A program made the translations under genes and the position numbers. From Geotalea uraniireducens Rf4 (lineage in GTDB: Bacteria > Desulfobacterota > Desulfuromonadia > Geobacterales > Geobacteraceae), in NCBI RefSeq assembly GCF_000016745.1, contig NC_009483.1:1080001-1112000 (forward strand): DNA of 32,000 nucleotides, given 5' to 3'. Below, one piece after another: positions 1,286 through 16,439 of this stretch. Every line of letters starts with the position of its first letter. Position 1 is the stretch's first letter. The notes beneath the pieces were generated by a model. It saw nothing but the letters and a program-made list of their open reading frames with translations. It ran no database searches and was not told the origin of the DNA.

Positions 1286-1488
1286 CTGGGAACTGGGAAC
1301 TGGGAACTGGGAACTGGGAACTGGGAACTGGGAACTGGGAACTGGGAACTGGGAACTGGGAACTGGGAACTGGGAACTGGGAACTGGGAACTGGGAACTG
1401 GGAACTGGGAACTGGGAACTGGGAACTGGGAACTGGGAACTGGGAACTGGGAACTGGGAACTGGGAACTGGGAACTGGGAACTGGGAA
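1286..1488. repeat. Perfect tandem heptanucleotide repeat (CTGGGAA) x 29
   Basis: Counted directly. First unit is 1286-1292 and last unit is 1482-1488, giving 203 nt = 29 x 7 with no variant position. It starts 3 nt after the regulator stop codon and ends 57 nt before the ATG at 1546. Confidence 0.97.
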
Positions 1489-1545
1489 ATTAGATTTTAC
1501 TGATCCCCGATCCCCGTTCCCTGATCCCAAATAAAGGGGGATACA

Positions 1546-2109: not shown

Positions 2110-2200
2110 AACAAGTGAGACGTGAGGCCAGTGTCGTATTGACTTAAGCCTTCAAGCTGGGCAGCAATCATGTATGGTACAGTTCATTAATTAAAGAATC

Positions 2201-2237
2201 AAAAAAGCCCGGGGATCTCTCCCCGGGCTTTTTGCTG
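2201..2237. terminator. Rho-independent terminator hairpin, copy 1 of 3 of an identical module
   Basis: Sequence is AAAAAAGCCCGGGGA-TCTC-TCCCCGGGCTTTTTGCTG. A 9-bp GC stem is flanked by an A-run and a T-run, so it can act in both directions. The identical string recurs at 3423-3459 and 7505-7539. Confidence 0.8.
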
Positions 2238-2449
2238 TCGTATCTTCTCCTTTCATTTGCCTTATTCGTATTTCTTATCGGTCAGCGACAAATAAAACCT
2301 GATTCCCTCTTCTCCCGATGTTCGAATATCAAAAGGAACTCTTTAACTGCTTGCAAAGTCGCGAAGATTGCTTTAATAGTAAAAACTAATCATTTCGCTC
2401 AATCTATTAGCAATGCTAATGGGCAAAACAAAAACATAGGGATAACGGA

Positions 2450-3391
2450 ATGGAAACGCTCTATTTGAAGACTCTTGTTGTGGCGGTTGATTCAGGAAGC
2501 TTTTCCAAGGCGGCAACGGTACTGAACATAACGCAATCTGCCGTCTCGCAGCGGATCAAGTTTCTGGAGGATCGCTATGGTTACCAGTTACTGGATCGAT
2601 CTGGTCCGGTTCTGGTTGCCACGGAAGCAGGCAGGGTGGTTCTGGCAAAAGCAGAAGAGATACTGCGTATTGAATCTGAGCTCAGCAACGAACTGAAGCA
2701 CATGGAGGGTAAACCACGCCTTTCTCTCTGCTGTACACCAACCTTCGGCATCGTCTATCTCCCCAACGTGTTGAACAGGTTCATTTTGCAAAATGCGGAC
2801 ATCGTTGACCTGAAATTCATGTTTTATACCCCTGAACAGGCAATAAAGGGTTTGCATGAAAACGAGTTCGACGTGGGGGTTATTGAACACTGTGAGGCAC
2901 TGGAACTTTCAGAGTTCAAGACGTTTCAACTACCCCGCGACGAGCTGGTTTTTATCAGTTCGCCCGGCTTGCAACTACCATCAATGGACGTGGATATCGA
3001 CCATCTGTTGCATCACCGCTTGATAGCCCGCAAAGTCGGTTGCAGTTCCAGGAAACTGCTCGAGCTGAACATGACTGCTATAGGGAGAAGTCTGAAAGAT
3101 TTCAAGAGGATGATCATCTATGACGACTTACGTTTGACTATCGATACCGTCATTGGCGGGGGAGGTATCGCGTTTGTATCCAGAAGCCTCGTGAAAAAAC
3201 AACTTGAGGAAGGTTCGCTCCTTGAGCATCGACTGCCTGGTTTTACCCATAATCGCTTTCGCACTGTTGCTCTAAACAAAAAAAGAACTCCGGATAAAGT
3301 TCTTCAGAATTTTATGGATTGCATTTTTACCACGTTCCCATCGGTTTCGGTGGAAGAAGAGGGGGATTCAAACCAGAATTGTCGACTATGA
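2450..3391 (+). CDS. LysR-family transcriptional regulator
   Basis: 313-aa ORF. N-terminal wHTH is FSKAATVLNITQSAVSQRIKFLEDRYG, followed by a LysR substrate-binding-type C-terminal region. The gene and its upstream region look more AT-rich than their neighbours. Confidence 0.88.
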   Translation: METLYLKTLVVAVDSGSFSKAATVLNITQSAVSQRIKFLEDRYGYQLLDRSGPVLVATEAGRVVLAKAEEILRIESELSNELKHMEGKPRLSLCCTPTFGIVYLPNVLNRFILQNADIVDLKFMFYTPEQAIKGLHENEFDVGVIEHCEALELSEFKTFQLPRDELVFISSPGLQLPSMDVDIDHLLHHRLIARKVGCSSRKLLELNMTAIGRSLKDFKRMIIYDDLRLTIDTVIGGGGIAFVSRSLVKKQLEEGSLLEHRLPGFTHNRFRTVALNKKRTPDKVLQNFMDCIFTTFPSVSVEEEGDSNQNCRL

Positions 3392-3422
3392 TAATTGAAA
3401 CCGTACAGTCCAACTGCTCCAT

Positions 3423-3459
3423 AAAAAAGCCCGGGGATCTCTCCCCGGGCTTTTTGCTG
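3423..3459. terminator. Bidirectional rho-independent terminator, copy 2 of the identical module
   Basis: Same 37-nt string as at 2201-2237. It lies between the convergent LysR gene (+, ends 3391) and cytochrome paralog A (-, ends 3486). Confidence 0.85.
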
Positions 3460-4045
3460 CGCTGGCACTTCCTTTCGTTACTTTGCTACAGGGTTACGGT
3501 GATGTAGTTGTACTTGCTGTCCACCTGCACTCCGTTTTTGTAGACGAGCACCGTCAGCTTTTTCGTGCCGGTTGTGGCATAAATATGATTGGCAGTGGCC
3601 GAACTGCCGGCGGCGCCCACGTGCGGCAGGGTGGTCGAAGTCCCGTCGGCCCAGATGATCCGCAGGGAGTCGTGGTCCTTCAGGTTGCCGAAGGTGTAGG
3701 TGCTTGAAATCCCTCTTCTGGCAGTGGTCGGACCGATGGTCATCCCGACAACGGGCGGGTTAACCACGTTGAGTGTCCTGGATACTGTTGCCGTTTTCCC
3801 TTCCTCATCGGTCACCTTGAGGGTGACGGCGTAGGTGCCGAGGGTGGAGAAGGTCTTGCTGGCGGATGGTCCGCCGGCAGTGGTGCCGTCGGTAAAGGAG
3901 AGGCTGTAGGTAAAGAAGCCGTTGCTGTTGACCCCGGTATCGGCGGACAGGGTATAAGGGGTGTTGACCACCAGCTGATACCCAGCGGTATTGGGGTCGG
4001 CATCGGGGAAGCCGGCAGGAAACTGGGCGACGGGATCAACTCCGA
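3423..4045 (-). repeat. Duplicated 3' module, copy A (terminator + PKD-like C-terminal domains); partner at 7505..8128
   Basis: Aligned by eye at offset +4080, becoming +4083 after one 3-nt indel. The terminator is identical. The next ~300 nt differ at roughly one position in ten. Similarity decays by about 4045/8128. Confidence 0.85.
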
Positions 4046-6983
4046 AACCTGTTTTTGCCTGTTGTGCCGGGTCGGCAAAGCTGTTCAGATAGGCAACCCA
4101 TGCCTTCCGGTCACTGGTTGCCACGGCTGCGCCGGTCTGGTCTGTGGTTATTCCTTTGTACTGCTTGTCAATCCATAGAGATCCGGCCAGCCCGAGTGGT
4201 CCGGCATCGCTCTGAGGATGGATGCGGACGCTGTAGCCGTTGCGCCCTTCGATGAGGAGCCCGCTGCCGTTGGCCCTGATGCCGAATTCCGGCTGTCCTC
4301 CGCTGTAAGAGGTGCCGTCCCAGGTTCCGGTGAATGCAGCGCCGAGGTTAGTGAGGAGACCGGCCATATCGGTGACAAGGGCCGACACCTGTTTCGTTCG
4401 GGTTACGACCGTTACGCCGGAGTTGTTGGTGGCTTCAATCTTGAGCAGCCACCCCTGGCTGGTGGTAGTGGTGCTTGTTGCTGCCGGGAACGTGATGGCA
4501 GTCCCGCTGATACTGGTGTTAAAGGCAGTATTACGGGCCTTGAAGGCGTTTTCATACAGCCCTTCGCTGCGATCGATGTCGCGGATTGTGGTCGCGTTGG
4601 AGGCGAATTGAACTGCAAGCGAGCGAACACCGCTTCTTTCCTTGACTCCGGGATGGAAATCCGAGGGCTGGGTGGAGGCGTTGACCGAGGCGAACGGGGT
4701 AACCTGTGCGCCGCCGCCGGTCCAGGACATATTCAGGGTATCCCCTTTGACAACGAACTTGCCGTTATAGAAGCCGCCTGCAGTGGTGTCGCCGATGGTT
4801 CCCGCAGAACTGGCGCTGGTGGACCCTTTGTGGCAGTCGCCGCAGCCGCCTGATCCCCAGGCAGAGTCGGCTGGGGAGATGTCATGGTTCGTTTTGAACG
4901 TAACCCCCATGAAAGAGAGCTTGGTTACATGGGTCTTGGTATTATTGCCTGTGGAACCCGGTGTCGATTTAAGGCCAAGCTGGTATTCAAGATCACGGTC
5001 AATGGCGTTGATGTGGTCGCTGATATCTGCTGCAGTGACGGTACCAAGCTGGGTAAGCGCAACCAGTTGTTGACCGGGCCGTAATGAATAGGTATTAGCC
5101 TTGTTGATGTTTGCCACGTGGGTTTGCAGGAGGGAATCCATCCCACCGGCTCTGCCGTCGTTGTTGGCGTCAAAATTGACATCATTTTTGTCTCGCCAGA
5201 AGAGTGATGTGGAGAGATTGGCAGCCGTCAGTTTGTTTCCTTGCCAGGCCATGAAGTTATTATTGGTCATGTTCTGGCGGGTTACATTCTCGTTCTCATG
5301 ATCGGCAAGCCGTCCTTCGGCATCGTTGCCGGTGCCGTCAACCATGGCTCCGCCGGTGAAGTTCCCCAGTTTTCGTGAATGGCAGGCTTCACAGGCGATC
5401 AGGTCGAGATGGCCGACGTTGGCCGTGCCGTTCATGGTCCCCCCCTGCTGGACAATCTTTGCGGTCAGACCTTTCGCCTGATGTGCAGCCGTGGGATTCG
5501 GTGCACCGTGGGTCTCGTAGGAGATGACGCTCTGGGTTGCCGGATCGAAATCCCCACCATAGATATGACAGCCGCTGCAGTTCTTGGTGGTGTTGTCCGT
5601 TGCATTCCAGAGGGATTCGTAGGCGCCGTTACCCTTGGCTGGATCGCACTGGCCGAGTTTTTTCGAATCGTCGCCGGGGCTGGCCGAGCTGATGTTGTTA
5701 AAGCCGTAGGTACCCTTGAGGCCCGTGAAGCCGGAAGTCCCTACTTTGGAGAAATCAGCGTCCTTGCGTTTGTGGCATCCCATACAGCCCATGCTGTAAT
5801 GGACTTCGGCGGTACCGGACCAGGTGTCACCCCTCTTTTTCCAGTCAACGGCATGTTCAGCCATGTGGCAGCCGACGCAATTGTTGGAATCGGGAGTGGC
5901 CAGAATGTTGCCGGCGACCGTGCCGGCCAGCTTGAGGGCGGAGTTGTCCCCGGTCGGCACGACTTTCAACGGGTCGTAGGTAACATTGACGCCATCTGTC
6001 GGACTTGCAGCACCGAGCAGCGCGCCGGTTGTTCGTGAAGCATCGAATTTGCCGGTACGAACCGCTTTTTTGCGCTCTTCCCAGGAATAATCCTTCAGGT
6101 GGCACATCAGGCAATCCATTTCAAGGACGCCGGTCTGGCTGTAATCGTTCTGAACCGCCGCATAGCTGGCTGGGGTGCCGTCCGTATTGAAGCCGTCACC
6201 GCGGCTGCCGTAAACATCGATGAAGTAGTTGAAAGCGGTTACAGCACTCCCGAAGAAATAATCACGCAAAGAGGTCCGCACTTCCGGACTTTTGCCGGGA
6301 ACGTACTCATTGGCGCCGCCACCCACATGGCATTCAGCGCAATCCCGCATGGAGCCGGCCATGGAGTTGTCGACCCTGGCCTTGAACAGCTGTTGCGCAG
6401 TAAGGCCGGGAAGTAGGGCCGCACTGGTGGGAAATGAAGCATCACCGTATGTGGTGCCGTAATCATAGGGGCTGAACGTTGTAAAGGGGTTATTCTTGAA
6501 TTTTGCCGCAGTTCCATCGTAGGTCGTTCCTGCACCATCTTTGAATAATCTCGCCAACTGGCGAGCGGAGGGTGGTCACCACGCCCCCACATGGCCGGGG
6601 CCCTGGACCCAGTTTTTGCCCTGGGGACCAGCGCCACTGACGACGGGATCCCCGGAATCGGGGTTCCAGTTGTTCCACCCCCGTTGTTCGTTTGAGGCCA
6701 GTTGGGCGTGATAGCTGTGCCGCTCGATCTGGTCATAGCTTAGCAGAGCTTTGCCGGACGAGGGGGCAATGGTTGAACCATTATGGCAGGCGCCACAGGT
6801 GTTCTTCATGCTGAAAGCCTTGGTGCTGCCGGGGGTGATCGGGTTTCCGCCGGCCGGGCCTGCATCACGGAGCAGTATGTTGTCGTGGGCCGGATTGTAA
6901 GCCACTGCTGTTCCAGCAATTAGAAGAACTGCGCTGGAAATCAGGCCAAGCTTCAATCGGCCATAGGCTGATATTCTTGTCAT
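3486..6983 (-). CDS. Candidate selenocysteine-containing octaheme c-type cytochrome with C-terminal PKD-like domains (paralog A, 1165 aa if UGA 6578-6576 is decoded)
   Basis: ORFs 6576..6983 and 3486..6557 are in the same frame. They are separated only by one TGA plus 6 sense codons (135+1+6+1023 aa = 3498 nt including the stop). The upstream ORF has SD AGGAGG, a signal peptide (LISSAVLLIAGTAVA) and one CXXCH (CGACH). The downstream ORF has 7 CXXCH (CAECH, CLMCH, CVGCH, CMGCH, CSGCH, CEACH, CGDCH). Its nominal TTG start has no SD and no signal peptide. The C-terminus has a PKD-like pattern (TYSLSFTDGTT...TLKVTDEEGKTATVSR). Confidence 0.6.
6550..6578 (-). promoter_or_regulatory. In-frame UGA plus SECIS-like hairpin (paralog A)
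   Basis: Minus strand reads UGG-UGA-CCACCCUCCG-CUCGCC-AGUU-GGCGAG. There is a 6-bp stem and a 4-nt loop, and the stem starts 10 nt after the UGA. Geometry matches the paralog B site. The outer stem pair is C-G here and U-A in paralog B, a compensatory change. Confidence 0.55.
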
Positions 6984-7504
6984 GTCGGTGTCTCTCCTCC
7001 TGAATTGGATGCCACCATGGGAAAGCCTTGCTTGCTTCCGCTGGTGGAGGTTGTTGTCAATATCGCCTCTGATGCGGTGGGTTTATCTTTTCCTCGATCC
7101 TCCTTTGGAATTTTTTCTTCGCGAGGTTTTGCTGTCTGGGGGGACAGGCCGCCCGGAAGCATTCAGGACGAAACTTCAAAACCTCTTGCAAACGGGAAAA
7201 CGAAACGCTTGTTATTGCCAAGCACGAATTAATCCTGAACCTCGACTAATGTGTCGTATTGTTTTGCATACCGTCATGAATAAAACTTATAAATTTATGT
7301 TTACTGGATTTCCGGAGCAGCTTGAGGGGTAGACGAAGGGAAAAAACAATATTTTGCATCAAAGATAGGATAGTGTGGCTTTTTCATAACGGCATTGAAA
7401 TTGTGAACTGTGGGGGATATGACGCAGAAGGGTAAAGAGAGTCGTCGTGTTGGGGATTTTCCCCCATTGACTGCCATGATATCAAAGATGGGAATAGTAA
7501 AATT

Positions 7505-7539
7505 AAAAGCCCGGGGATCTCTCCCCGGGCTTTTTGCTG
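7505..7539 (-). terminator. Rho-independent terminator, copy 3 of the identical module
   Basis: Sequence AAAAGCCCGGGGATCTCTCCCCGGGCTTTTTGCTG lies 26 nt downstream of the paralog B stop (7566). It is identical to the copies at 2201 and 3423. Confidence 0.85.
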
Positions 7540-8128
7540 CGTTGACACTTCCTTTCGTTACTTTGCTACAGGGTTACGGTGACGTAGTTGTACTTGCTGT
7601 CCACCTGCACCCCGTTCTTGTAGACGAGCACTGTCAGTTTCTTCGTGCCGGTAGTGGCATAAATATGGCTGGTAGTGGCCGAACTGCCGGCGGCACCCAC
7701 GTGCGGCAGGGTGGTCGAAGTCCCGTCGGCCCAGATGATCCGCAGGGAGTCGTGGTCCTTCAGGTTGCCGAAGGTGTAGCTGGTGGAGATCCCTCTTTTG
7801 GCCGTGGTCGGACCGATGGTCATCCCCCCGACAACCGGCGGGTTGACCACGTTGATGGCCCTGGATACGGTTGCCGTCTTCCCTTCCTCATCGGTCACCT
7901 TGAGGGTGACTGATGAGGTGCCGATGGTGGAGAAGGTCTTGCTGACGGATGGCCCGCTGACAGTGGTGCCGTCGGTAAAGGAGAGGCTGTAGGTGAACGA
8001 GCCGTTTGTGTTGACGCTGGTATCCGCCGCCAGGGTGTAGGGTGTGTTGACTACCAGCTGGTAGCCGGAGGTGTTCGGGTCGGCGTCCGGGAAGCTGGCG
8101 GCGAACTGGGCGACCGGGTCTACGCCGA
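7505..8128 (-). repeat. Duplicated 3' module, copy B; partner at 3423..4045
   Basis: See the partner entry. The last ~190 aa of both paralogs are nearly the same (GVDPVAQF...NGVQVDSKYNY(I/V)TVTL). Confidence 0.85.
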
Positions 8129-11100
8129 TGCCGGCGGCAGCGGCGTTGTTGTCGATGCTGAGCAGATAGCTGATCCACTCGCTCCGCTTGTAGGAGCCTG
8201 CTGTTCCCGTACCCCCCGGAGCCGTGCCGTCAGCCCTGAAGTAACCGTCGGGATCAGGATAGAGAGCTTCCCCGCGGCTCAGATCTTTAGTCTGTGTGTA
8301 AACTACGCTATTCTCAACTACTTCTTCCTCGAAAGGAACACTCCTCGGCTGGCCGAGCTTGTTGAAGAGTTCGGTACCAGTGCGAAGATCACCCTTGTAG
8401 GCCTTGATGGTCGGAATGAATACGGCAGGTCTCTCCATCATGGTTGAGGCGCTCGCGGGAATAATGCCGGGGGCCGGTGTCCAGGTAGCATCGGCGGGTA
8501 TTGCGGTACCGGTCATGTTAAAGCCGCCGTCGAAGAAGTTTTTAGCCGTTGCGTGGCAGTCGTTGCAACCGAATGTTGTTACCTTGCCTGTCGCGTCGAA
8601 GGCACGCGGCTTACCCAGGACATACTGACTGATTGGTTTGACGCCGTGGGTCACCTGGTACAGGCCGCCGATATAGCCAAGCTCGGTGCCGTCCCAGGAT
8701 TTGCCGCTCTGTCCCGGCATGTCCTTGATCCGGGTTCTGTAATTTTTGTACTCCCTGATTTCGTCAGGGGTGGTGAAGATGGTATTGCCGCCGTAAACGC
8801 CAACGTATTTCCAGGCGCCGGTGAAGCTGCCATCCATGTTGTAGGCGCTCTGGTACCTACCTCCCTGTGCAGTTGATCCGGCAACACCGTCTCCGGGACC
8901 GCCGAACCCAACCGGGATCGGGGCGAAGCCGCCGGGGGCGAAGTTAATGCCCGCCTTGAGGTCGCGCTGAATCCACGGGTCAAAGATCGGTTCGCCAAAG
9001 CCCTGGGTCGAATTGAGATCACCGACTGCCAGAATCTGCCCATTGACACCATCACCGTTGGCGTCGACAGTTGTGCCGTAGTCGTTGTTGAAGAGCGCCG
9101 AGACGATAGTGTTGGTCAGGTAAATTTTACGCCTGAAGTTCGGGCTGGTCTTCAAGCCGTTGCCGACCTTCGACCAGGTTTTCAGCGGCAGCCATTCCTG
9201 GAGTGCACCGCCGATAAGCTGGGTGCCGTATGGAATTTCGGCCTGGTAGCCAGGGCCTGGTTGATTGGTTGCGGCACAGATGGTTCCGGGGCCCTGGCTG
9301 GCAGAGGTATAGCCGCAGTTCTGGTTGATGGTCTGGTTCATGAAGTTATATTGCTGTCTGGCACCTTCGTTGGCAGCGTCCGGCGCCGGGTCTTCGAACA
9401 TGCCCATCATACCCTTGCTGTAATCGAAGCCAACCATGGTCGGGTAACGGTTGCCGCTGGTGCAGTCAAGTGCGCGGACTGCCATGCTCTTTTTCTGCAC
9501 GTGACAGACGGTGCAGTCAATGACATCAAGATGGTTGCCGGGGATGAGTTTCTGGCCGCCGCTGCCATCCGGGCCCATGGCCCTGTTGATCATGGCGGTG
9601 AGGCCTGCTCTCTGATGTGCTGCTGTGGGGTCCGGGGCCCCCATGACATCTATCGGATTGCCGTCGGGGTTGCTGCCGGAGAGATGACAGCTTTCACAGC
9701 GTTTGACGGTATTGCGGCTGTCGACCTTGGTGCCGATCTGCGAGCCGTCTGCTATGGTGCCTGAGCCGTCGAAACCGCGGCCGGGATCACACTGATTCTT
9801 GTCGGGATTGGAACTGTTGGTGTCCATGTGACAGCCTGCGCAGCCAAGGCTGCCATGAATCTCCTGGCCATTCTGCCAGGCATCGCCACGCTTGAACCAG
9901 TCGGCACGAGGGAAGGGTACGGTGGATTTCTTCAGTACGTTCTGGTTCTGCTGTCCCGTGAAATCGGCGGTAAGGCCGATTTCCGTAACCGGTGCCTCAT
10001 AGTAGATCGGGCCGCTGGCACCTTTATTGTCACCACCGAAGGAGGTCATGCCGTTGACGGTCAGCCTGTTGTAGACGGTTGACCCCTGGGCGGCAAGGAT
10101 GCCGCGGACCATGTAACTGTAGAGGTTGGTCGCGTCGATCAATGGCGAATTGGGGGAGCCGGGGTATTTATCGGGAGATGGCATCCACGGCGCATTAAAA
10201 TCGTAGGCCGGCATTACCAGCCCGGTCGGGCCTACCATCGGATTGTTTACATTGGTGTTCAGGATCATCGGCGCCGAAGAGAGGAACCCGGTCATCATTT
10301 CCGGCAGATCCTTGAGAGTGTTCGGGCTATGACACTGCTGACAGTTGGCGCTGGGTGGCAGACGCTTGATGTTGTCAACCAGCGATTGCTTCAGACTGAC
10401 TGCCTGCATGCCGTTGGCATCTTTTGGCCCAAGTTCGATCATGGCGGCGTTGTAACCACCCTGGGTCGGGCTGCCGGGCATGAGGTCCATGAGGCCTGCT
10501 CCGGCCATTGGCGCTGCATTGAGAATGCCCATCTGCGCAAAAACTGAACTCATCAGGTTGTTGTAACCCTGGAAGTGGCAGAAAAGACAGTCCATCTCCC
10601 GTACGTTCGGCATCATCAGCTGCCCGTTCTGAATGTAAGGGGGCGTATTTGCCGTCCCATCCTGGTTCATGGCGACACTTCCCCAGCCGTTGGGAGCAAT
10701 CATCGCGTTACCGCCGCCAAGGGCCGGCGCCTTCCTGTCGGTTGTGCCGGGATAGCTCCAGGGTGCACGGATCACATTGCTTAGCGGGCTGCCTGTTTTT
10801 GCGTCCCATGCTTCGGCAACGGTGTTCATATAAGGGGTAATCGTTTGGTCGGACAACGCCCGTTGAGAAAGCCTGAAGCCGTTGCGGTCCTTTTCCACCA
10901 GGGCGCCGCCTACGTGGCAGCTGCCGCAGTTGGTCGCCATGTCCCATACGGAAAGGTCGACCTTGGTATACTTGCTGCCTGCTACATCACCAAAAAGAAA
11001 TTTATCTGTAGTTGGATAGGTTAAATCGGAACCACCTGGTTGTTTCATTAAATTCGCCACCTGGCGAAGAGAGGGGCTTCACCACTTGCCCCACATGGCT

Positions 11101-11543
11101 TTGGTCTGGGTCCAGGGTTTCTGGCGGTTGACTGTGGTGTCAAAGCCGCCGGTGGGCGAATCGTTCCATTCATTGGCTCCGAGAGCCGAATGGAAGGCGT
11201 GGTCGGCCAGCGCATCGTAACTTTTCAGTGCTTTACCAGTGGATGGTGCGATTGTCGAGCCGTTGTGGCAGGAACCGCAGGTTGCCTTGGGGCTGTAAGG
11301 GAAGCCCTCCATCGGGTTTTGCGGATTGCCTCCGACCATTACCGGCATCGGTCCCATGGGGACCTTGTTGCCGCTTGCATCGACAGTGTAAGGTACACCA
11401 TACTGGATGGCTACCTCGTCGTAGGTCTTGAGCTCGATCGGCGGATGGGCTGCGAAGCTTGTGCCCAACGACAGCCCGAAACCGGTCAAGAGCGCACCGA
11501 CCGTGGCCATCATCGGCAACGAGTCTTTAAAACGCTTGTTCAT
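7566..11543 (-). CDS. Candidate selenocysteine-containing octaheme c-type cytochrome with C-terminal PKD-like domains (paralog B, 1325 aa if UGA 11081-11079 is decoded)
   Basis: ORFs 11079..11543 and 7566..11060 are in the same frame. They are separated by one TGA plus 6 sense codons (154+1+6+1164 aa = 3978 nt including the stop). The upstream ORF has SD AAGGA, a signal peptide (MMATVGALLTGFGLSLGTSFA) and CGSCH. The downstream ORF has 7 CXXCH (CGSCH, CLFCH, CQQCH, CAGCH, CESCH, CTVCH, CNDCH). Its nominal GTG start has no SD and no signal peptide. Confidence 0.6.
11053..11081 (-). promoter_or_regulatory. In-frame UGA plus SECIS-like hairpin (paralog B)
   Basis: Minus strand reads UGG-UGA-AGCCCCUCUC-UUCGCC-AGGU-GGCGAA. 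There is a 6-bp stem and a 4-nt loop containing GG. The loop begins 17 nt after the UGA. Confidence 0.55.
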
Positions 11544-11696
11544 GACTATTCCTTTCGTTTTTGAGTTTTTTTCACGGTCTGTGAGATCCGCGCTTTTCCA
11601 CCCCCGTAAATTTCCTCCTGCACTGGGGGATGCAGTGGATTGGGGCAGTTCTTTTGCAAAGCCAAACGGGTCGGGAATGGAAACGTTTTATTAGGT

Positions 11697-11904: not shown

Positions 11905-13044
11905 TTATTTGCCGGCAGCTACGGCCTGGAGAGGTGCGTTGTTACCGAGTGGCGGGGTTGTGTTGTTCTGCTGAGCGGAGACCTTTTGGTGGCCGAAGCC
12001 GTAAACGCTTATCTTTCTTGGTCCTGCCTGGTTGGTGACGAATATCAGTTGCTCCACCTCAAAGGCGGGGTCGGCAAACCGTCGAAAGTATTCAAGGTTG
12101 TCGCGGCTGATGGCTATATCGGCGGGGAGATTCAAGGTTCCCGCCTTTGATCCCCGTTCGCCGAAGAACATGAGCAGTTGGGCATCCTGATTGAAAATCT
12201 GGACAACCTGATGGCCGGCGTCGACCACGTAGATCAATCCATCATCGTCCACCGCAATCCCTTTGGGTCTGGCAAACTGTCCCGGCCGGTCCCCCGTCTC
12301 ACCAAAGGCCTTCATCACCTTGCCCGTCCGGTCCATCTTGATTATCCGGTTGTGTCCCAGGTTGGTTACGTAGACGAAACCGTTTTTGTCCAGGGCAAGG
12401 TTGGTCGGCAGGGACAATGTTTCATCCGGTTTGCCCTCCCTGCCGATGCTCCTGATCAGGTTTCCGCTCTTCCTGTCCAGTACCTTCACTTCACTGCTGC
12501 TGTAATCGACGACGAATATTTCGTCGCCATAGATTGCCACATCCGTTGGTTTCGTGATCTCCCTGGCAAGGGTTCTTTGCAAATCCCCTTCCGGCGTGAA
12601 CTGCAAGACCGCTTTCTTGCCGGTATCAGCCACATAGATGTTCCCCTCCTGGTCAAGTGCTATGTTGATCGGTGTTTGCATGGCATCCTGCCTGAACAGG
12701 GCATATGTTTTCTGTTCAAAGTCAATGGCGGACAGCTGCGCAAAAGGGGTATCGGAAACGTATATTTTGCTCCCCCTGACGGCGATGCCGTAAGGTTTTG
12801 AGAGCGTTTCCCCCGGTTCGGCTGTATTCGGGAGAAATGGCAGCAGCGCAGGTTTTACATCAGCGGCGCTGGATATGCTGGTAAGGTACTGTAAGTGGGG
12901 CGGGTTCGGGGCTGGGGGGAAATAAACCGTTTCCTTTGCGGGTTTGTTCAGGGCACAGCCGGTGAGCCAGAAGGGGAGCAGCAATAAGAGAAGAAAAGGC
13001 TTGAAGGTTGGTTTTCCGACGGCGTTAGGGCGATGGGGGTGCAT
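11905..13044 (-). CDS. NHL-repeat (beta-propeller) lipoprotein
   Basis: I place the start at ATG 13044, which has SD GGAGA 8 nt upstream. The 13125 start has no SD. Lipobox is LLLLLLPFWLTGC. Repeated NHL-type blades include GNIYVADTGKKAVLQF, DEIFVVDYSSSEVKVLD, GFVYVTNLGHNRIIKMD and GLIYVVDAGHQVVQIF. Confidence 0.8.
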   Translation of the reverse strand: MHPHRPNAVGKPTFKPFLLLLLLPFWLTGCALNKPAKETVYFPPAPNPPHLQYLTSISSAADVKPALLPFLPNTAEPGETLSKPYGIAVRGSKIYVSDTPFAQLSAIDFEQKTYALFRQDAMQTPINIALDQEGNIYVADTGKKAVLQFTPEGDLQRTLAREITKPTDVAIYGDEIFVVDYSSSEVKVLDRKSGNLIRSIGREGKPDETLSLPTNLALDKNGFVYVTNLGHNRIIKMDRTGKVMKAFGETGDRPGQFARPKGIAVDDDGLIYVVDAGHQVVQIFNQDAQLLMFFGERGSKAGTLNLPADIAISRDNLEYFRRFADPAFEVEQLIFVTNQAGPRKISVYGFGHQKVSAQQNNTTPPLGNNAPLQAVAAGK

Positions 13045-13119
13045 GGTTATTAATCTCCGAATAAAGTTTCCTGCTCCGATTCTCCGGCGAACCTGTGTCG
13101 TTATTAGAGCCTTCAGGGG

Positions 13120-13152
13120 GGCCAATGGGCAGGCTGCGCCTGCCCATTGGCC
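13120..13152 (-). other. Intercistronic 14-bp perfect stem-loop between the tetraheme cytochrome and the NHL gene
   Basis: Sequence is GGCCAATGGGCAGG-CTGCG-CCTGCCCATTGGCC. No U-tract follows on the minus strand. It is therefore more likely an mRNA-stabilising, processing or attenuating hairpin than a full terminator. Confidence 0.5.
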
Positions 13153-13174
13153 GGTGAAAGCAAGAAGCCGGCTG

Positions 13175-13966
13175 CTATTTGTCGTGGCAGGTCAGGCAAA
13201 GTTTCGAGCCGTCCAATTTTACGCGCAAGAGTGGGGCCGCGGCGGTTGCGTTTGCGGTATTATGGACATCGTGGCAGGAGGCGCAGGTCAACTTGTCACC
13301 CTTGTACAAGAGCTCGCTGATGGTTGTGCACTTCCTGTCACCGGCCGGAATCCAGGAGATGTTGGCGTTGGGCTGGTGGATATACGGATCCAGGGCAGCT
13401 ACCTTCCCGTAACTGAAACCGATCGGATGGTCGTCCATCAGGTTTCCGCCGTTGGCACCCCCGAAGGCGCCATCAGGGGCAAGCACTACATGGTTAGAGG
13501 TGGGGGTGAACGACCCCATCTTGCCGCTGTAAGAATCTATGGCGGTAGTACCGTCGTGGCAACTCATGCAGAGCCGGGATGGTCCGTCCATCATATCCGC
13601 CGGATCGATCACCGCCTGTAGGCTCGCGGACTTATCCAGGTAGTCGGGCTCTGTCATGTAGTCGCCTTCCTCTATGCCGACATAGGGGAGGAAGTTCTGC
13701 GTGGTCTGCGTGTGGTTCCATAAGGGGCTGTAAGAAGCCTGGCCGGTGCTGAGAGTGTTGTGTGGCGTGTGGCAGAATTTGCATACTTGCTGCTGGTTGT
13801 CACCGTTGTTGGCTCCGCCGGTTGCCAGGGGGAGGTAGAGGTTCATGTTATGGGGCGAACTGATAACCCCGCTCCCGGGTGAGTATGAGACAAGGCCGGC
13901 GAAAGCCAAGCTTGCACTTCCCGCCAGCACGGTAACAAAAATGCCGGCAATAAAATTGAGTTTCAT
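13175..13966 (-). CDS. Tetraheme c-type cytochrome (periplasmic/secreted)
   Basis: 263-aa ORF with SD GAGGA and signal peptide MKLNFIAGIFVTVLAGSASLAFA. Four CXXCH motifs are present (CKFCH, CMSCH, CASCH, CLTCH). A CxxCHTPH...PLWN-type signature is also present. Confidence 0.85.
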   Translation of the reverse strand: MKLNFIAGIFVTVLAGSASLAFAGLVSYSPGSGVISSPHNMNLYLPLATGGANNGDNQQQVCKFCHTPHNTLSTGQASYSPLWNHTQTTQNFLPYVGIEEGDYMTEPDYLDKSASLQAVIDPADMMDGPSRLCMSCHDGTTAIDSYSGKMGSFTPTSNHVVLAPDGAFGGANGGNLMDDHPIGFSYGKVAALDPYIHQPNANISWIPAGDRKCTTISELLYKGDKLTCASCHDVHNTANATAAAPLLRVKLDGSKLCLTCHDK

Positions 13967-14152
13967 AAGTATCCTCTTTTACAAGTAAAGATGATTGGTT
14001 GTTGACGATGCATAATCAGGTTCGGCGCTTTCATTTTTCCCGTTTGGCTTTTTAGTGCATGCTGCCCGGATAAAGGGAGACTCAGCTGCTGTTCTTGCCA
14101 TTGCCCGGCTCTGCATCCTTCCCCCAAAGGAGTGCAAACGAGTATCACCGAG

Positions 14153-14168
14153 AGCAATGTTGATGCCA
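14153..14168 (-). promoter_or_regulatory. Sigma-54 (-24/-12) promoter of the cytochrome operon
   Basis: Minus strand is TGGCAT-CAACA-TTGCT, against the consensus TGGCAC-N5-TTGCW, with exact GG/GC spacing. It lies ~185 nt upstream of the ATG at 13966, immediately downstream of a sigma-54 activator gene. Confidence 0.65.
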
Positions 14169-14300
14169 TGCATGTCCGTACCCGCTGGCGGCAAGTGATA
14201 AATGCCCGAGATACGTCTAAACATCAGTATATTGCAAAACTTTCATCTCTTTGTTGCTTGCCGGCCCCTCTCTCCAGCAGAAAGTGCCGGTGAAAAAATA

Positions 14301-14345
14301 GGGGTATTTGCCCCATGTCAGGGGCCGGTTGGGTGAAAATGCCCC
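14301..14345. promoter_or_regulatory. Possible upstream activator sites (GGGGTA-TT-TGCCCC palindrome and a weaker GGGTGA-AAA-TGCCCC copy)
   Basis: 14301-14314 is GGGGTATTTGCCCC. 14331-14345 is GGGTGAAAATGCCCC. They lie ~135-175 bp upstream of the -24 element, the usual distance for bEBP binding sites. A partial IHF-like ATCAG-N4-TTG lies between them and the promoter at about 14224-14236. Confidence 0.3.
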
Positions 14346-14385
14346 AGTGGAGCATGGCCAGGGACAACCTATCCTGTTTACCCCT

Positions 14386-15888
14386 TCAGCTCACCAGATG
14401 CGGGAATAACCGTTGAGAAACGGCAGAATCCTCCCCCGTTTTCATGTCGCACCATTCGTCCTTTTGGGATGATTCCGACATGCCGAATTTTTTCATGCGG
14501 TAGCGGAGGGTGTCCCGGCTCATTTTCAGATATTTGGCTGCTTTTGTTTGGTTGCCGCCGGAGATCTCAAGCCCCATCCGGATAAGTTGACGCTCCAGTT
14601 CTTCCAGGGATATGCCGCCGGTCGGGATGGTAATATGCCCCCTGGCAAACGAATGCTGGGCAGAAGCATGTGAATCGACATGCAGGCTTTTGTTTTGTGC
14701 TGTTTCGTATTGCTGCTTTATTTCCGCGTTCAGAAAAACGGGAGTCAATATTCTGCTATGTTCGAGCATCATGGTTCGTTCTATGGCGTTACGCAGTTCC
14801 CGTACATTCCCCGGCCAGCCATAGCCGGTGAGATAAGCCATGGTTTCCGGCGACACCCCTTCCACCCTGCGCCCGTATTCTTCATTCAGCCGTTCGATGA
14901 AATACTGGACGAGGCTGGGGATATCATCCGTTCTCTCCCTCAGCGGCGGCAAGGGAATGTTCATGACGTTCAAGCGGTAAAAAAGGTCGCCTCTGAAGCG
15001 GCGTTCTTTAACCATTGCAGGTAGATCCTGATGGGTGGCGGCGATGATCCTCACATCAGCCTGGATGTCTTCTTCCGCACCGAGACGGCGGAACCGTTTC
15101 GTCTCAATCACCTTGAGCACCTTTGCCTGCATGGAAAAGGGCATATCGCCGATTTCGTCGAGAAAAACCGTTCCACCTTCTGCCAGTTCGAAGATCCCCT
15201 TGCGCCTCTTGCTTGCATCCGTGTACGCCCCCTTTTCATGGCCGAAAAGTTCGCTTTCCAGAAGGGTTTCCGGTATGGCGGCACAGTTGACCTCTGCAAA
15301 CGGTGCCTCGGCCCTTGCACTGTGATTGTGGATGGCCCTGGCCACAAGTTCCTTGCCGGTTCCGCTTTCACCCAGGATCAGAACAGTTTTGGCATCGGTA
15401 TCCGCACAGACCTTGATCATCTTGAAAAGGTTGACCATGCTTGCGCTGTTTCCCACGAGTTTGTCATGTTCGGTTTTCTTGCGGAGTTCCTTGCGGAAAA
15501 AATCCAGTTTTTCCCTGAGTTGCCTCTTTTCAAAAGCCTTGTCGATAACGTGGCGTAACGCTTCCATATTGAATGGCTTGCCGATATAGTCTTCCGCACC
15601 TAGCTTCAAGGCTCTGACAGCGGAATCGACATCGGCATTGGCAGTGATCATTATTACGCTGAGCTCTTCATCTCTGAGTTTGAATTGCTGGAGCAGGTCC
15701 AGACCATCGGCATCGGGGAGCCGTATATCAAGTAGTGCCATATCAGGCTTGAACAGGGAGAGTTTATTGATTGCTTCCGACCCGCTGGCAGCGGTTTCGA
15801 CCGCATACCCGGCTTTTGAGAGCATGACGGATAGGGACCAGGAAATAAGCTTTTCATCATCGACGATTAATATCCTGTTATGCTCCAT
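14386..15888 (-). CDS. Sigma-54-dependent response regulator (NtrC family)
   Basis: I place the start at ATG 15888 (MEHNRILIVDDEK), which has SD GAGGA 9 nt upstream. The longer ORF runs to 16005. It has a CheY-like receiver, an AAA+ domain with GESGTGKE, a variant sigma-54 contact loop GAYTDA, and a C-terminal Fis-type HTH (GGNQTKAAKYLKMSRDTLRYRMKKFG). Confidence 0.88.
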   Translation of the reverse strand: MEHNRILIVDDEKLISWSLSVMLSKAGYAVETAASGSEAINKLSLFKPDMALLDIRLPDADGLDLLQQFKLRDEELSVIMITANADVDSAVRALKLGAEDYIGKPFNMEALRHVIDKAFEKRQLREKLDFFRKELRKKTEHDKLVGNSASMVNLFKMIKVCADTDAKTVLILGESGTGKELVARAIHNHSARAEAPFAEVNCAAIPETLLESELFGHEKGAYTDASKRRKGIFELAEGGTVFLDEIGDMPFSMQAKVLKVIETKRFRRLGAEEDIQADVRIIAATHQDLPAMVKERRFRGDLFYRLNVMNIPLPPLRERTDDIPSLVQYFIERLNEEYGRRVEGVSPETMAYLTGYGWPGNVRELRNAIERTMMLEHSRILTPVFLNAEIKQQYETAQNKSLHVDSHASAQHSFARGHITIPTGGISLEELERQLIRMGLEISGGNQTKAAKYLKMSRDTLRYRMKKFGMSESSQKDEWCDMKTGEDSAVSQRLFPHLVS

Positions 15889-16439
15889 GGTTGCTGTCCT
15901 CTGAGTATAAACGTTGCAGTCGTACGGCAAATCAGCGTCATTTTGGGGTCTTGGTTGATTAACCATGGAGCCGGCGATAGCTTTATGGGTGGACCGTTGC
16001 TTCATGGGGATATGTATTCTCTGCTTTGCACGGTTCAGCTAAGGCGGCAATCCATTCGAAATCTTTTTGGGAGGGTGGTTACTTTCGAGCACGGAAGCAC
16101 TGTTGTCCTGCTTAGCACAAACCGGTCCGTGTGACACAGATATGCAAAAAATATTTCTAATATCAATATAATAAATTATTACAATATTGCATTTATTGGG
16201 TTTATGGCTGGCCGTGAAAATAAAATTAGAAATAATTTTAAATCAAAGTACTGAGATATTGTGAAAATACGATGGTTGGCTAGCGTTAATTGAAAACCGT
16301 TTACGCAAAAACACGGGAACATGTTGTGTTTCCGCAAAATGCCGGGGAACCTGCCGTCTACTTGCCGATTGCGTTGCCGGGAAAGGGTTGGAGTTCAAGG
16401 AAGAGAAAGTTTGCCTGAAGGGGAGTCTTGCATGAATTC

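What the first reader, a model, noticed from the sequence alone, without database searches (positions are those of the whole stretch)
7566..11543. Paralog B: an in-frame UGA with a downstream hairpin fuses two ORFs into a 1325-aa octaheme cytochrome, a candidate selenoprotein
Seen in sequence:
- The 154-aa ORF (11079..11543) ends ...KAMWGKW-TGA.
- Exactly 6 sense codons later, in the same frame (SPSLRQ), the 1164-aa ORF nominally starts at a GTG.
- That GTG has no Shine-Dalgarno, and the protein from it (MANLMKQPGGSDL...) has no signal peptide. Yet it carries 7 CXXCH heme-attachment motifs, which require export.
- The small ORF supplies a good SD, a signal peptide and an eighth CXXCH.
- Ten nt after the UGA there is a perfect 6-bp stem and 4-nt loop (UUCGCC-AGGU-GGCGAA). 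The G-containing loop starts 17 nt from the UGA.

Established knowledge, from memory: bacterial SECIS elements are hairpins just 3' of the UGA, with a G in the apical loop about 16-37 nt away. Deltaproteobacteria of this type carry Sec machinery. I believe a Geobacter multiheme '(seleno)protein ExtKL' has been named in RefSeq, but I cannot verify that. This protein is far larger, splits its hemes 1+7, carries PKD-like domains and has no ExtHIJ-type neighbours.

Inference: this is a single Sec-containing extracellular octaheme cytochrome, with Sec in a W-U motif about 120 residues after signal-peptide cleavage.
Basis: partly seen in the sequence, partly recalled or inferred. Interest (0 to 1): 0.9.

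Follow-up and report, generated by a model that had tools for sequence, protein, structure and literature searches.

The report
Overlooked selenocysteine octaheme cytochrome family
Two ORFs that public annotations treat as separate genes most likely encode one exported 1325-residue, eight-heme cytochrome whose internal UGA is read as selenocysteine. It belongs to a selenoprotein family conserved across Geobacter relatives, including the model species G. sulfurreducens, and every public annotation examined splits it.

Summary
Comparison with related sequences makes the selenocysteine (Sec) reading very strong.

- **UGA conservation.** The same in-frame TGA sits in the motif G-x-W-[TGA]-x-P-S-(L/A)-R-Q at 44 of 44 sites in 28 Geobacterales/Desulfuromonadales sequences. 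These include the window's paralog A and both G. sulfurreducens copies.
- **Hairpin.** The 6-bp/4-nt hairpin 10 nt downstream of the UGA is kept in all 42 distinct sequences. All cells are paired, and 3 of 6 pairs show compensatory changes.
- **Cys homologs.** Three homologs read straight through with Cys. The two whose DNA was examined (TGT, TGC) have lost the hairpin.
- **No independent large gene.** The large ORF has no Shine-Dalgarno sequence and no signal peptide in any homolog. TGA is an ordinary stop elsewhere in the window.

The family shows no detectable sequence relation to MccSep/ExtKL. That is the pentaheme Sec polysulfide reductase published in 2026. It also matches neither of the other two catalogued Sec cytochrome families. 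RefSeq and GenBank still split it into a "hypothetical"/"1-heme cytochrome" and a "PKD domain-containing protein".

Not shown:
- the chemical role of the Sec, which by analogy is a nucleophile working with a heme and the lone invariant Cys585;
- extracellular location;
- Sec machinery in this particular genome.

Verdict: a real Sec recoding site defining a new multiheme selenoprotein family.

The parts
7566..11543 (-). Complete recoded gene (paralog B): a 1325-codon reading frame with one internal UGA
   Evidence: Translation. Collinear homology across the UGA appears in 28 sources. Full-length Cys homologs were found.
11550..11554 (-). Shine-Dalgarno-like AAGGA upstream of the ATG at 11543
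   Evidence: Upstream sequence printed. No comparable purine run precedes the GTG at 11060.
11448..11543 (-). Signal peptide, about residues 1-32 (...GTSFAA|HPP)
   Evidence: Hydrophobic segment with Kyte-Doolittle score 1.78. It aligns with the signal peptides of 30 N-terminal homologs. The cleavage site is inferred from the A-x-A pattern and was not run through a predictor.
11082..11447 (-). N-terminal monoheme domain (heme motif C89-G-S-C-H93; invariant H118, K142, W144, G152, W154)
   Evidence: Alignment A7. No Pfam or NCBIfam family matches. Alone it folds poorly in AlphaFold2 (pLDDT 59.7).
11079..11081 (-). UGA codon 155, read as selenocysteine (inferred)
   Evidence: TGA at 44/44 aligned sites. 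Homologs carry TGT/TGC (Cys) here. 38 of 44 cluster representatives end exactly at G-x-W.
11053..11068 (-). SECIS-type hairpin: 6-bp stem (11068-11063 with 11058-11053) and loop AGGU (11062-11059), starting 10 nt after the UGA
   Evidence: Fold. On 42 sequences, 100% of 252 cells are paired and 3 of 6 pairs have changes on both sides; 0 of 500 shuffles reach this. The hairpin is absent in the two Cys-type homologs whose DNA was examined.
7566..11078 (-). Part downstream of Sec: conserved SPSLRQVAN linker, seven CXXCH motifs (fused residues 206, 319, 401, 568, 616, 677, 993), then Ig-like/PKD domains and a TAG stop
   Evidence: AlphaFold2 model with pLDDT 78.8 and pTM 0.75.
9789..9791 (-). Cys585 (motif K-x-Q-C-D-P-G-R-G). 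It is the only conserved Cys outside heme motifs and is the candidate partner of Sec155.
   Evidence: Invariant in A1. Present in 40 of 41 residues at that column in A5. Its role is inferred.
7863..8057 (-). PKD domain (fused residues about 1163-1227)
   Evidence: PF18911 E = 5e-08 and PF00801 E = 6.6e-06. PDB collagenase PKD domains are hit by the family profile.
7505..7534 (-). Intrinsic-terminator-like hairpin (13-bp stem followed by a T run) just after the stop codon of paralog B
   Evidence: This is a consensus match only.
3486..6983 (-). Paralog A: same architecture, 135 aa + UGA (6576-6578) + 1029 codons, hairpin CUCGCC-AGUU-GGCGAG at 6565-6550, and 1+7 CXXCH
   Evidence: (z = -2.54).

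Best explanation
Window 11543..7566 (minus strand) is one gene.

**Synthesis, inferred from strong comparative evidence.**
- Translation starts at the ATG at 11543.
- At codon 155 the UGA is decoded as selenocysteine. SelB and Sec-tRNA(Sec) would be recruited by the 6-bp/4-nt hairpin that begins 10 nt downstream. This is the standard bacterial SECIS mechanism.
- Translation continues through SPSLRQ and on to the TAG at 7566.
- The 1325-residue product is exported by its N-terminal signal peptide. It receives eight c-type hemes (1 + 7 CXXCH) in the periplasm. It ends in Ig-like/PKD domains.

**A conserved family.** Paralog A (6983..3486) works the same way. The pair is conserved in Geobacteraceae and relatives, including G. 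sulfurreducens.

**Function, by analogy only.** Sec155 would be the redox-active nucleophile of an enzyme-type multiheme cytochrome. It would work with a nearby heme and probably the lone invariant Cys585, as Sec and the heme-ligating Cys do in the polysulfide reductase MccSep. A chalcogen substrate (polysulfide/S0, selenite) is the leading guess.
For: **Conservation of the UGA**
- TGA lies at the same aligned position, with conserved residues on both sides (G-x-W | x-P-S-L/A-R-Q). This holds at 44/44 sites in 26 genome loci, G. sulfurreducens and the window.
- 30 of 30 database N-terminal fragments end ...G-K-W.
- Of 44 representatives at 50% identity, 38 end at G-x-W, 3 read through with Cys, and 3 are truncated.

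**Sec/Cys pair**
- Homologs P0031 (TGT) and P0033 (TGC) are collinear through the site.
- P0113 also carries Cys at the aligned residue. Its DNA was not examined.

**Hairpin**
- It is kept in all 42 distinct sequences, with 100% of cells paired.
- Compensatory changes occur at 3 of 6 pairs (U-A/C-G twice, C-G/G-C once). Some of them cost amino-acid changes (Asn/Asp, Ala/Pro).
- 0 of 500 shuffles reach the observed score. Slid controls give 29-75% paired and no compensatory change.
- In the Cys forms the same register gives 1 of 6 and 4 of 6 pairs, with no stem, although PSLRQ is kept.
- The TGA-N10-hairpin pattern occurs only at the two junctions in the window; 0.01 are expected by chance.

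**No independent large gene**
- The large ORF has no Shine-Dalgarno sequence and no hydrophobic N-terminus.
- Gene callers pick different arbitrary starts in different homologs, none with a signal peptide.
- Seven CXXCH hemes require export. This point rests on established cytochrome c maturation biology.

**Genetic code**
- TGA ends 8 of 17 other genes in the window, so the code is standard.

**Sec insertion in this lineage**
- Mass spectrometry proved Sec insertion in G. sulfurreducens MccSep (PMC13510729).
- selB is annotated there.
- Geotalea relatives are reported to have the machinery (PMC1914089).

**Function hints**
- Sec is substituted only by Cys.
- There is a single invariant non-heme Cys585.
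- Only five invariant non-motif His (H118, H563, H643, H671, H966) serve eight hemes.
- The probable G. sulfurreducens homologs are induced together with iron oxides, and with GSU2937 in an ihfA mutant. The locus-tag mapping is inferred.
Against: - There is no direct evidence for selenium in this protein.
- No sel genes or tRNA-Sec lie in the 32-kb window. The source genome could not be scanned.
- Rfam gives no SECIS match.
- The paralog B hairpin is weak by single-sequence statistics (z = -0.83).
- A GTG/TTG codon is always present at codon +7 because it forms part of the hairpin. Reinitiation therefore cannot be excluded on sequence alone.
- The compensatory changes probably stem from only about three evolutionary events.
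- Function is analogy only. The family has no detectable sequence similarity to MccSep. The fused protein could not be modelled. Foldseek matched only the Ig-like domains. The distances between Sec, Cys585 and any heme are therefore unknown.
Confidence: 0.85

Rival explanations
1. These are two real genes. UGA terminates a secreted 15-kDa monoheme cytochrome. Ribosomes then reinitiate at the GTG/TTG seven codons downstream (translational coupling) to make a separate seven-heme protein.
For: A GTG or TTG is present at codon +7 in all 42 sequences. Every public annotation examined calls two genes.
Against: - The six codons between stop and 'start' are as conserved at protein level as the flanks.
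- The large product has no signal peptide in any homolog, yet needs export for heme attachment.
- No Shine-Dalgarno sequence is present.
- The GTG/TTG is explained by the hairpin, where it supplies the last two loop bases and the first base of the 3' arm.
- Cys homologs are single polypeptides.
- The N-terminal domain alone does not give a confident fold.
Confidence: 0.04
2. UGA is read through, but with a standard amino acid (Trp, Cys or Arg by near-cognate decoding, or an alternative genetic code) rather than selenocysteine.
For: Nothing in the sequence directly identifies the inserted residue. The source genome's Sec machinery was not seen.
Against: - TGA is the normal stop of 8 of 17 window genes.
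- A conserved, covarying hairpin at SECIS distance accompanies the UGA and vanishes in the TGY forms.
- The only sense replacement seen is Cys, the classical Sec counterpart.
- Sec insertion is experimentally proven in the same family of organisms.
Confidence: 0.04
3. The gene is a pseudogene, nonsense mutation or sequencing error.
For: None beyond the presence of a stop codon.
Against: The same codon at the same position occurs in 44 sites across at least five named genera and many metagenome-assembled genomes (MAGs). Both halves are intact and under protein-level conservation.
Confidence: 0.01
4. Functional rival: Sec155 is inserted but is not a substrate-attacking nucleophile. It could be an axial ligand of one of the hemes (His/Sec ligation tuning potential). 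It could also be a metal-binding or redox-switch residue forming a selenenylsulfide with Cys585, in a protein whose job is electron transfer to minerals.
For: - Only five invariant non-motif His are available for eight hemes, so some hemes need another ligand.
- The probable G. sulfurreducens homologs are induced by hematite and magnetite.
- Neighbours are other multiheme cytochromes and an NHL propeller, as in electron-transfer clusters.
Against: - No natural Sec-ligated heme is known (from my own knowledge).
- In the one solved Sec multiheme cytochrome, the heme ligand is Cys and Sec is the nucleophile.
- Nearly invariant Met residues could supply the missing ligands.
Confidence: 0.25

Closest known systems
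MccSep / ExtKL (GSU2937-2936), multiheme cytochrome c selenoprotein and polysulfide reductase (PMC13510729; PDB 9wt8/9wt9; NCBIfam NF040886)
   Same: - Same organisms.
- Exported c-type multiheme protein with one Sec encoded by a UGA that annotation pipelines treat as a stop splitting the gene in two.
- SECIS-like hairpin just downstream.
- Sec/Cys homolog pairs.
- An Ig-like domain and a conserved non-heme Cys.
- The local motif is loosely alike: G-U-P-T-P-N-R versus W-U-S-P-S-L-R.
   Different: - No detectable sequence homology. The family profile and the single sequence do not hit 9wt8/9wt9 although these are in the searched PDB copy. NF040886 is not hit even at E <= 10.
- 8 hemes rather than 5, and 1100-1600 aa rather than 450.
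- Sec lies about 120 residues from the mature N-terminus at the end of a monoheme domain, not in the C-terminal Ig domain.
- No ExtHIJ neighbours.
- Function untested.
Tetrathionate reductase (OTR) family octaheme cytochrome with Sec (TIGR04315; listed as GenBank-annotated in PMC13188914)
   Same: An octaheme c-type cytochrome reported to contain Sec in some members, with sulfur-compound chemistry.
   Different: TIGR04315 is not matched at E <= 10. The size and domain layout differ, and PKD domains are present.
GSU2204 family CXXCH-containing (seleno)protein (NF041027; PMC13188914)
   Same: A Geobacter protein family with a heme motif and a Sec.
   Different: It is described as an MtrB/PioB-type outer-membrane beta-barrel. 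NF041027 is not matched. The protein here is a soluble-type multiheme protein.
Bacterial SECIS elements of the fdhF type (SelB-binding hairpin just 3' of the UGA)
   Same: - Hairpin within the coding sequence, with its stem starting 10 nt after the UGA.
- Small apical loop with invariant G and U (A-G-K-U).
- From memory, the E. coli minimal element is a 17-nt stem-loop 11 nt after the UGA with essential loop G and U.
   Different: - Short 6-bp stem without an evident bulged U.
- No Rfam model matches.
- A lower stem is only suggested in paralog A.
- SelB binding is untested.
MtrC/OmcA-type outer-surface multiheme cytochromes (PF22113)
   Same: Weak profile similarity over part of the heme region. 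The genomic setting sits among electron-transfer cytochromes.
   Different: Scores are below Pfam's gathering threshold (27.9 versus 30 bits). Heme number and order differ, and no porin partner is in the window.

Membership tests
Bacterial selenoprotein (UGA-Sec recoding) | In-frame UGA conserved at one position, with protein conservation on both sides | tested here: met
   44/44 sites carry TGA in G-x-W|x-P-S-L/A-R-Q. 38 of 44 representatives end at G-x-W.
Bacterial selenoprotein (UGA-Sec recoding) | Homologs with Cys at the aligned position | tested here: met
   P0031 (TGT), P0033 (TGC) and P0113 (Cys residue; DNA not examined).
Bacterial selenoprotein (UGA-Sec recoding) | SECIS hairpin immediately downstream at a fixed distance, supported by covariation | tested here: met
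   A 6-bp stem 10 nt after the UGA is 100% paired in 42 sequences. 3 of 6 pairs are compensatory and 0 of 500 shuffles reach this. It is lost in the two Cys forms examined. The single-sequence z-score is weak.
Bacterial selenoprotein (UGA-Sec recoding) | selA/selB/selC/selD present in the same genome | not testable with these tools
The machinery is documented for G. sulfurreducens and for Geotalea relatives.
Bacterial selenoprotein (UGA-Sec recoding) | Selenium demonstrated in the polypeptide | not testable with these tools
   Needs 75Se labelling or mass spectrometry.
MccSep / ExtKL family (NF040886) | [quoted passage not shown] | tested here: not met
   No NF040886 hit at E <= 10. The family profile does not hit PDB 9wt8/9wt9, which are present in the library. 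Here there are eight hemes and the Sec is N-terminal.
MccSep / ExtKL family (NF040886) | His/Cys-ligated active-site heme with Sec within ~4 A of the ligating Cys | not testable with these tools
   A lone invariant Cys585 exists. The fused protein could not be modelled, and the models carry no hemes or accessible coordinates.
OTR-family octaheme cytochrome (TIGR04315) | Match to the family profile | tested here: not met
   Absent from hmmscan at E <= 10.
GSU2204 family CXXCH (seleno)protein (NF041027) | Match to the family profile | tested here: not met
   Absent from hmmscan at E <= 10.
c-type multiheme cytochrome (general) | Multiple CXXCH motifs plus an export signal on the same polypeptide | tested here: met
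   There are eight CXXCH motifs, seven of them invariant across homologs. A signal peptide is present only on the N-terminal part.
MtrC/OmcA decaheme family (PF22113) | Pfam match above the gathering threshold | tested here: not met
   27.9 bits against a cut-off of 30 for paralog B, and 25.8 for paralog A.

The most novel reading that the evidence does not exclude
This would be a second, independently evolved heme-selenium catalytic centre. Sec155, delivered by an N-terminal monoheme domain, would sit over a heme of the seven-heme core together with Cys585. The large PKD-bearing protein would be a secreted or surface-exposed reductase acting directly on solid or colloidal chalcogen or metal substrates (S0/polysulfide, selenite, or mineral surfaces). 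The boldest version has Sec itself as an axial heme ligand, which is unknown in nature.
Probability: 0.3. Interest if true: 0.8.

Novelty: new variant of a known kind. Interest (0 to 1): 0.7.

Why it matters
- **Annotation.** Geobacter's cytochromes are the core of its mineral, electrode and sulfur respiration, and their annotation is used constantly. Four long-standing 'genes' of G. sulfurreducens appear to be two selenoproteins. These are PCA proteins AAR36618/36619 and AAR36623/36624, probably GSU3226/3228 and GSU3232/3233. Mutant, proteomic and heme-count tables that treat them as separate 1-heme and 7-heme proteins would be wrong.
- **Breadth of Sec-heme chemistry.** The first Sec multiheme enzyme, MccSep, was characterised only in 2026. 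A second family, unrelated in sequence, much larger, and conserved as a paralog pair across Geobacterales, suggests that selenium-plus-heme chemistry is a recurrent solution in these anaerobes.
- **Testability.** The hypothesis can be tested at once in a genetically tractable organism.
- **Pipelines.** The case gives annotation pipelines a clean new SECIS and selenoprotein model.

Tried and rejected
- **Rfam.** Gathering thresholds on the whole window, and a permissive scan around the UGA, gave no SECIS or other meaningful family.
- **Protein family libraries.** Pfam and NCBIfam on both halves and on the fused sequence gave only PKD and generic, sub-threshold cytochrome matches.
- **PDB by sequence.** The single sequence gave nothing. 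The family profile gave only PKD domains. The N-domain profile gave nothing.
- **Structure prediction.** All three Cys homologs exceed the 1200-aa limit.
  - The C-terminal ORF alone gave a usable model (pLDDT 78.8). Foldseek against the PDB matched only tandem Ig-like domains, with TM <= 0.10 on the query. The heme core therefore has no recognised structural relative by this route.
  - The N-domain alone folded poorly (pLDDT 59.7), so no fold search was run on it.
- **Lower SECIS stem in paralog A.** It is 92.7% paired with one covarying pair, but it is not distinguishable from shuffles. It is left as inconclusive.
- **Alignment A4.** A large alignment that included the N-terminal fragments was misaligned and was discarded.
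- **G. sulfurreducens locus tags.** I tried to verify them in the KN400 re-annotation table. The stored file is cut before that region, so the GSU numbers rest on accession order and memory.
- **Literature.** Searches for an earlier description of this family found only ExtKL/MccSep. I found no paper merging these ORFs.

Full report
**1. The observation**

All features are on the minus strand.
- A 154-codon ORF (11543..11079) ends ...KAMWGKW-TGA. The same frame continues with SPSLRQ and then a GTG (11060) that a mechanical ORF finder takes as the start of a 1164-codon ORF ending at 7566.
- The N-terminal ORF has an AAGGA Shine-Dalgarno, a hydrophobic signal segment and one CXXCH.
- The large ORF has seven CXXCH and a PKD domain. 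It has no Shine-Dalgarno (upstream CCCCTCTCTTCGCCAG) and no hydrophobic N-terminus.
- The hairpin UUCGCC-AGGU-GGCGAA starts 10 nt after the UGA.
- Taken alone the hairpin is not special: -8.6 kcal/mol, z = -0.83, and 40 of 200 shuffles fold as well.
- The composite TGA-N10-hairpin pattern occurs only twice in the 32-kb window, against 0.01 expected.
- The second hit is the neighbouring paralog A (6983..3486). It has the same build: 135 codons ending HVGAW-TGA, then PPSARQ, a TTG 'start', 1+7 CXXCH, and the hairpin CUCGCC-AGUU-GGCGAG.

**2. Comparative evidence for recoding**

Protein searches:
- A search with the fused sequence found about 77 strong homologs, nearly all from Geobacteraceae/Desulfuromonadales. 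They cover only the part after the UGA.
- Two proteins, P0031 and P0033, cover the whole query and have Cys at the UGA position (...GKW-C-xPSLRQ...).
- A search with the N-terminal region returned 30 proteins of 127-170 aa. All end exactly ...G-K-W.
- An exhaustive HMMER search of 1.84 billion cluster representatives with the 154-aa ORF found 44 proteins. Of these, 38 end at G-x-W, 3 read through with Cys (P0031, P0033, P0113), and 3 are truncated fragments.

Genome loci:
- Twenty-seven loci were fetched, from Geotalea, Geomonas, Geomesophilobacter, Oryzomonas and several MAGs. The G. sulfurreducens chromosome was added.
- I located the aligned codon in all of them. It is TGA at 44 of 44 sites, window included, in the motif G-x-W-[TGA]-x-P-S-(L/A)-R-Q.
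- Two paralog types exist, B with PSLRQV and A with PPSARQLAR. They usually lie in the same locus.

Genetic code:
- TGA terminates 8 of 17 other genes in the window, so the genetic code is standard.

**3. The hairpin is a conserved RNA structure tied to the UGA**

- On an ungapped alignment of 42 distinct sequences, the 6-bp stem (columns 14-19 with 24-29, counting from the U of UGA) forms a standard pair in 252 of 252 cells.
- Three of the six pairs show changes on both sides: 14-29 is U-A in 26 and C-G in 16; 15-28 is U-A in 33 and C-G in 9; 18-25 is C-G in 40 and G-C in 2.
- None of 500 shuffles reaches the observed pairing or covariation score. Sliding the 3' arm gives 29-75% pairing and no compensatory change.
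- The 15-28 change couples a synonymous Leu change (CUU/CUC) to an Asn/Asp replacement. The 18-25 flip couples CGC/CGG (Arg) to an Ala-to-Pro replacement. The RNA pairing is therefore maintained at the expense of the protein.
- The loop is A-G-(G/U)-U with invariant G21 and U23.
- These are probably only about three independent events, so the statistics should not be over-read.
- The control is clear. In the two Cys-type genes examined the peptide PSLRQ is kept, yet the same register gives 1 of 6 (TGT form) and 4 of 6 (TGC form) pairs, with no stem.
- A lower stem enclosing the UGA-proximal bases is suggested in paralog A. It is not distinguishable from shuffles.
- Rfam has no matching model. 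From my own knowledge, bacterial SECIS elements are family-specific, so this is not surprising.
- Also from memory, the geometry is close to the E. coli fdhF minimal element: stem start 10 nt after the UGA and a small loop with G and U.

**4. Rivals**

- **Termination and reinitiation at the GTG/TTG.** This cannot be formally excluded, because that codon is always present. Its presence is explained by the hairpin, where it supplies the last two loop bases and the first base of the 3' arm. The inter-ORF codons are as conserved as the flanks. There is no Shine-Dalgarno sequence. The large product would lack the signal peptide that heme attachment requires. Gene callers choose different, arbitrary starts in different homologs, such as MKQPGG, MDQD, MNQT and MADLQKK.
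- **Pseudogene or sequencing error.** This is excluded by conservation across genera.
- **Insertion of another amino acid.** This is disfavoured by the SECIS-type hairpin, by Cys being the only sense substitute, and by the normal use of TGA as a stop.
- **Sec machinery.** I could not check it in the source genome. The window has no tRNA or sel gene. Sec insertion is proven by mass spectrometry in G. sulfurreducens (PMC13510729), which carries both paralogs with the same UGA and hairpin. selB is annotated there. Geobacter uraniumreducens and Geobacter sp. FRC-32 were reported to have the machinery (PMC1914089). They are now in genus Geotalea (the FRC-32 = G. daltonii equivalence is from memory), and Geotalea holds the window's nearest named relatives at 80-83% identity.

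**5. What the protein is**

- It has a signal peptide, then an about 120-residue N-terminal domain with one heme motif. That domain has invariant H118, K142, W144, G152 and W154.
- Sec155 follows, then the conserved linker x-P-S-L-R-Q.
- A roughly 950-residue region follows, with seven invariant CXXCH motifs.
- Other conserved blocks are MPNVKEMDC, VPFPRAEWFKRGD, QCDPGRG, VDANGDG and PVGFG.
- It ends in Ig-like/PKD domains (AlphaFold2 pLDDT 78.8 for the C-terminal part).
- The N-domain alone does not give a confident model (pLDDT 59.7). That fits a segment that packs on the rest of the protein.
- Only five non-motif His are invariant (H118, H563, H643, H671, H966) for eight hemes.
- There is exactly one conserved Cys outside heme motifs, Cys585.
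- There is no lipobox. Location beyond the inner membrane is not determined, so 'extracellular' is unproven.

**6. Context**

- Upstream on the same strand lie a 263-aa tetraheme cytochrome, an NHL-repeat beta-propeller and a sigma-54-dependent response regulator.
- The cytochrome and the propeller recur next to type B genes in about half the loci. The regulator recurs in several.
- A strong terminator-like hairpin follows paralog B (7534..7505). Paralog A has its own Shine-Dalgarno sequence and a long upstream spacer.
- In G. sulfurreducens the two paralogs flank a LuxR-type two-component pair.
- The PCA proteins are AAR36618.1 (137 aa) + AAR36619.1 (991 aa), and AAR36623.2 (121 aa, 'Cytochrome c, 1 heme-binding site') + AAR36624.2 (1063 aa). 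They are still split after the 2012 expert re-annotation and in RefSeq.
- By accession order and memory these are GSU3226/3228 and GSU3232/3233. I could not verify the tags.
- If the tags are right, all four ORFs are induced 2-8-fold by hematite or magnetite (PMC4070692). Three of them also rise together with GSU2937 (MccSep) in an ihfA mutant (PMC7962754).

**7. Most likely mechanism**

Well supported by the comparative data: ribosomes reaching UGA155 are met by SelB and Sec-tRNA(Sec) bound to the hairpin 10 nt downstream. One polypeptide is made, exported and loaded with eight hemes.

Inferred: Sec155 is a redox-active selenol serving a catalytic heme, probably with Cys585. The analogy is MccSep, where Sec attacks polysulfide or selenite and a heme-ligating Cys resolves the adduct. 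The supporting hints are:
- Sec is exchanged only for Cys.
- A single conserved extra Cys is present.
- There are too few conserved His ligands for eight hemes.
- Homologs occur in sulfur-metabolising Desulfobacterota such as Dissulfurirhabdus.

Alternatives remain open, at about one in four: Sec as a heme ligand, or as a redox switch in a mineral-facing electron-transfer protein.

**8. Comparison with what is known**

- A 2026 review lists three cytochrome-related selenoprotein families: ExtKL (NF040886), the GSU2204 family (NF041027) and Sec-containing members of the OTR octaheme family (TIGR04315) (PMC13188914).
- None of these profiles matches either half or the fused protein, even at E <= 10.
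- MccSep structures (9wt8/9wt9) are in the PDB copy searched. They are not hit by the sequence or by the family profile.
- The 2007 stop-codon survey that first flagged GSU2937+2936 did not report this family. Later literature searches found no description of it.
- It therefore works like a known kind, a Sec-containing multiheme cytochrome with a bacterial SECIS. It is not a member of any described family.

**9. Verdict**

- This is a real recoding site, with about 0.9 confidence for Sec read-through. It defines a new selenoprotein family within a known kind.
- Confidence in the whole statement, including the proposed chemistry, is 0.85 as worded. The chemistry is flagged there as analogy only.
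- Interest is 0.7. The result corrects the annotation of a model organism. It gives a second family, unrelated in sequence to the first, pairing selenium with multiheme cytochromes, one month after the first was characterised. It is directly testable.
- It is not categorically new.

Noticed in passing
window 3486-6983 (-): Paralog A has the same UGA (6576-6578), the same hairpin with one compensated pair, and 1+7 CXXCH. The A/B pair is conserved and usually linked in other Geobacterales genomes, although gene order and spacing vary.
   Followed up: yes
window 3486-4200 versus 7566-8280 (-): The last ~550-700 nt of paralogs A and B (the PKD/Ig-like C-terminus) are about 76-100% identical, while the rest is about 50% identical. 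This looks like recent gene conversion, or a shared C-terminal module, between the tandem paralogs.
   Followed up: partly
N-terminal domain, window 11265-11279 (-) and homologs P0085-P0110: The first heme motif is CX2CH in the window. In homologs the spacer between the invariant first Cys and the CH ranges up to about 15 residues (for example P0108 about CX13CH and P0101 about CX15CH). This is reminiscent of the unconventional motifs that need dedicated heme lyases in MccA-type enzymes (from memory).
   Followed up: no
proteins P0121, P0124-P0140, P0144, P0148, P0149: A third architecture exists. Its N-terminal parts are 270-590 aa, with Ig-like repeats and 3-6 extra CXXCH ahead of the same domain. 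They also end exactly ...GKW, so some family members would carry about 11-14 hemes plus Sec.
   Followed up: partly
window 7505-7534 (-): A 13-bp GC-rich hairpin followed by a T run lies directly after the stop codon of paralog B. It is a likely intrinsic terminator separating the B and A transcription units.
   Followed up: no
window 11905-16005 (-): The upstream neighbours on the same strand are an NHL-repeat beta-propeller (11905-13125), a 263-aa tetraheme cytochrome (13175-13966) and a sigma-54-dependent response regulator (14386-16005). All three recur beside type B genes in other genomes.
   Followed up: partly
window 11439-11450 (-), residues 32-35: An A-H-P-P motif immediately after the predicted signal-peptide cleavage site is nearly invariant in type B N-domains. 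The conserved His at or next to the mature N-terminus may be a heme or metal ligand.
   Followed up: no
window 25391-26404 (+): A separate 337-aa cytochrome has ten CXXCH motifs (four paired-CXXCH Pfam repeats) and a signal peptide.
   Followed up: no
L028 (G. sulfurreducens AP017912) 1300-11192: Both paralogs are present with TGA and the same hairpins, flanking a LuxR-type response regulator and a PAS histidine kinase. In the type A copy only 7 CXXCH are counted, because the first motif is C-x5-CH (CFGTAGCH).
   Followed up: partly
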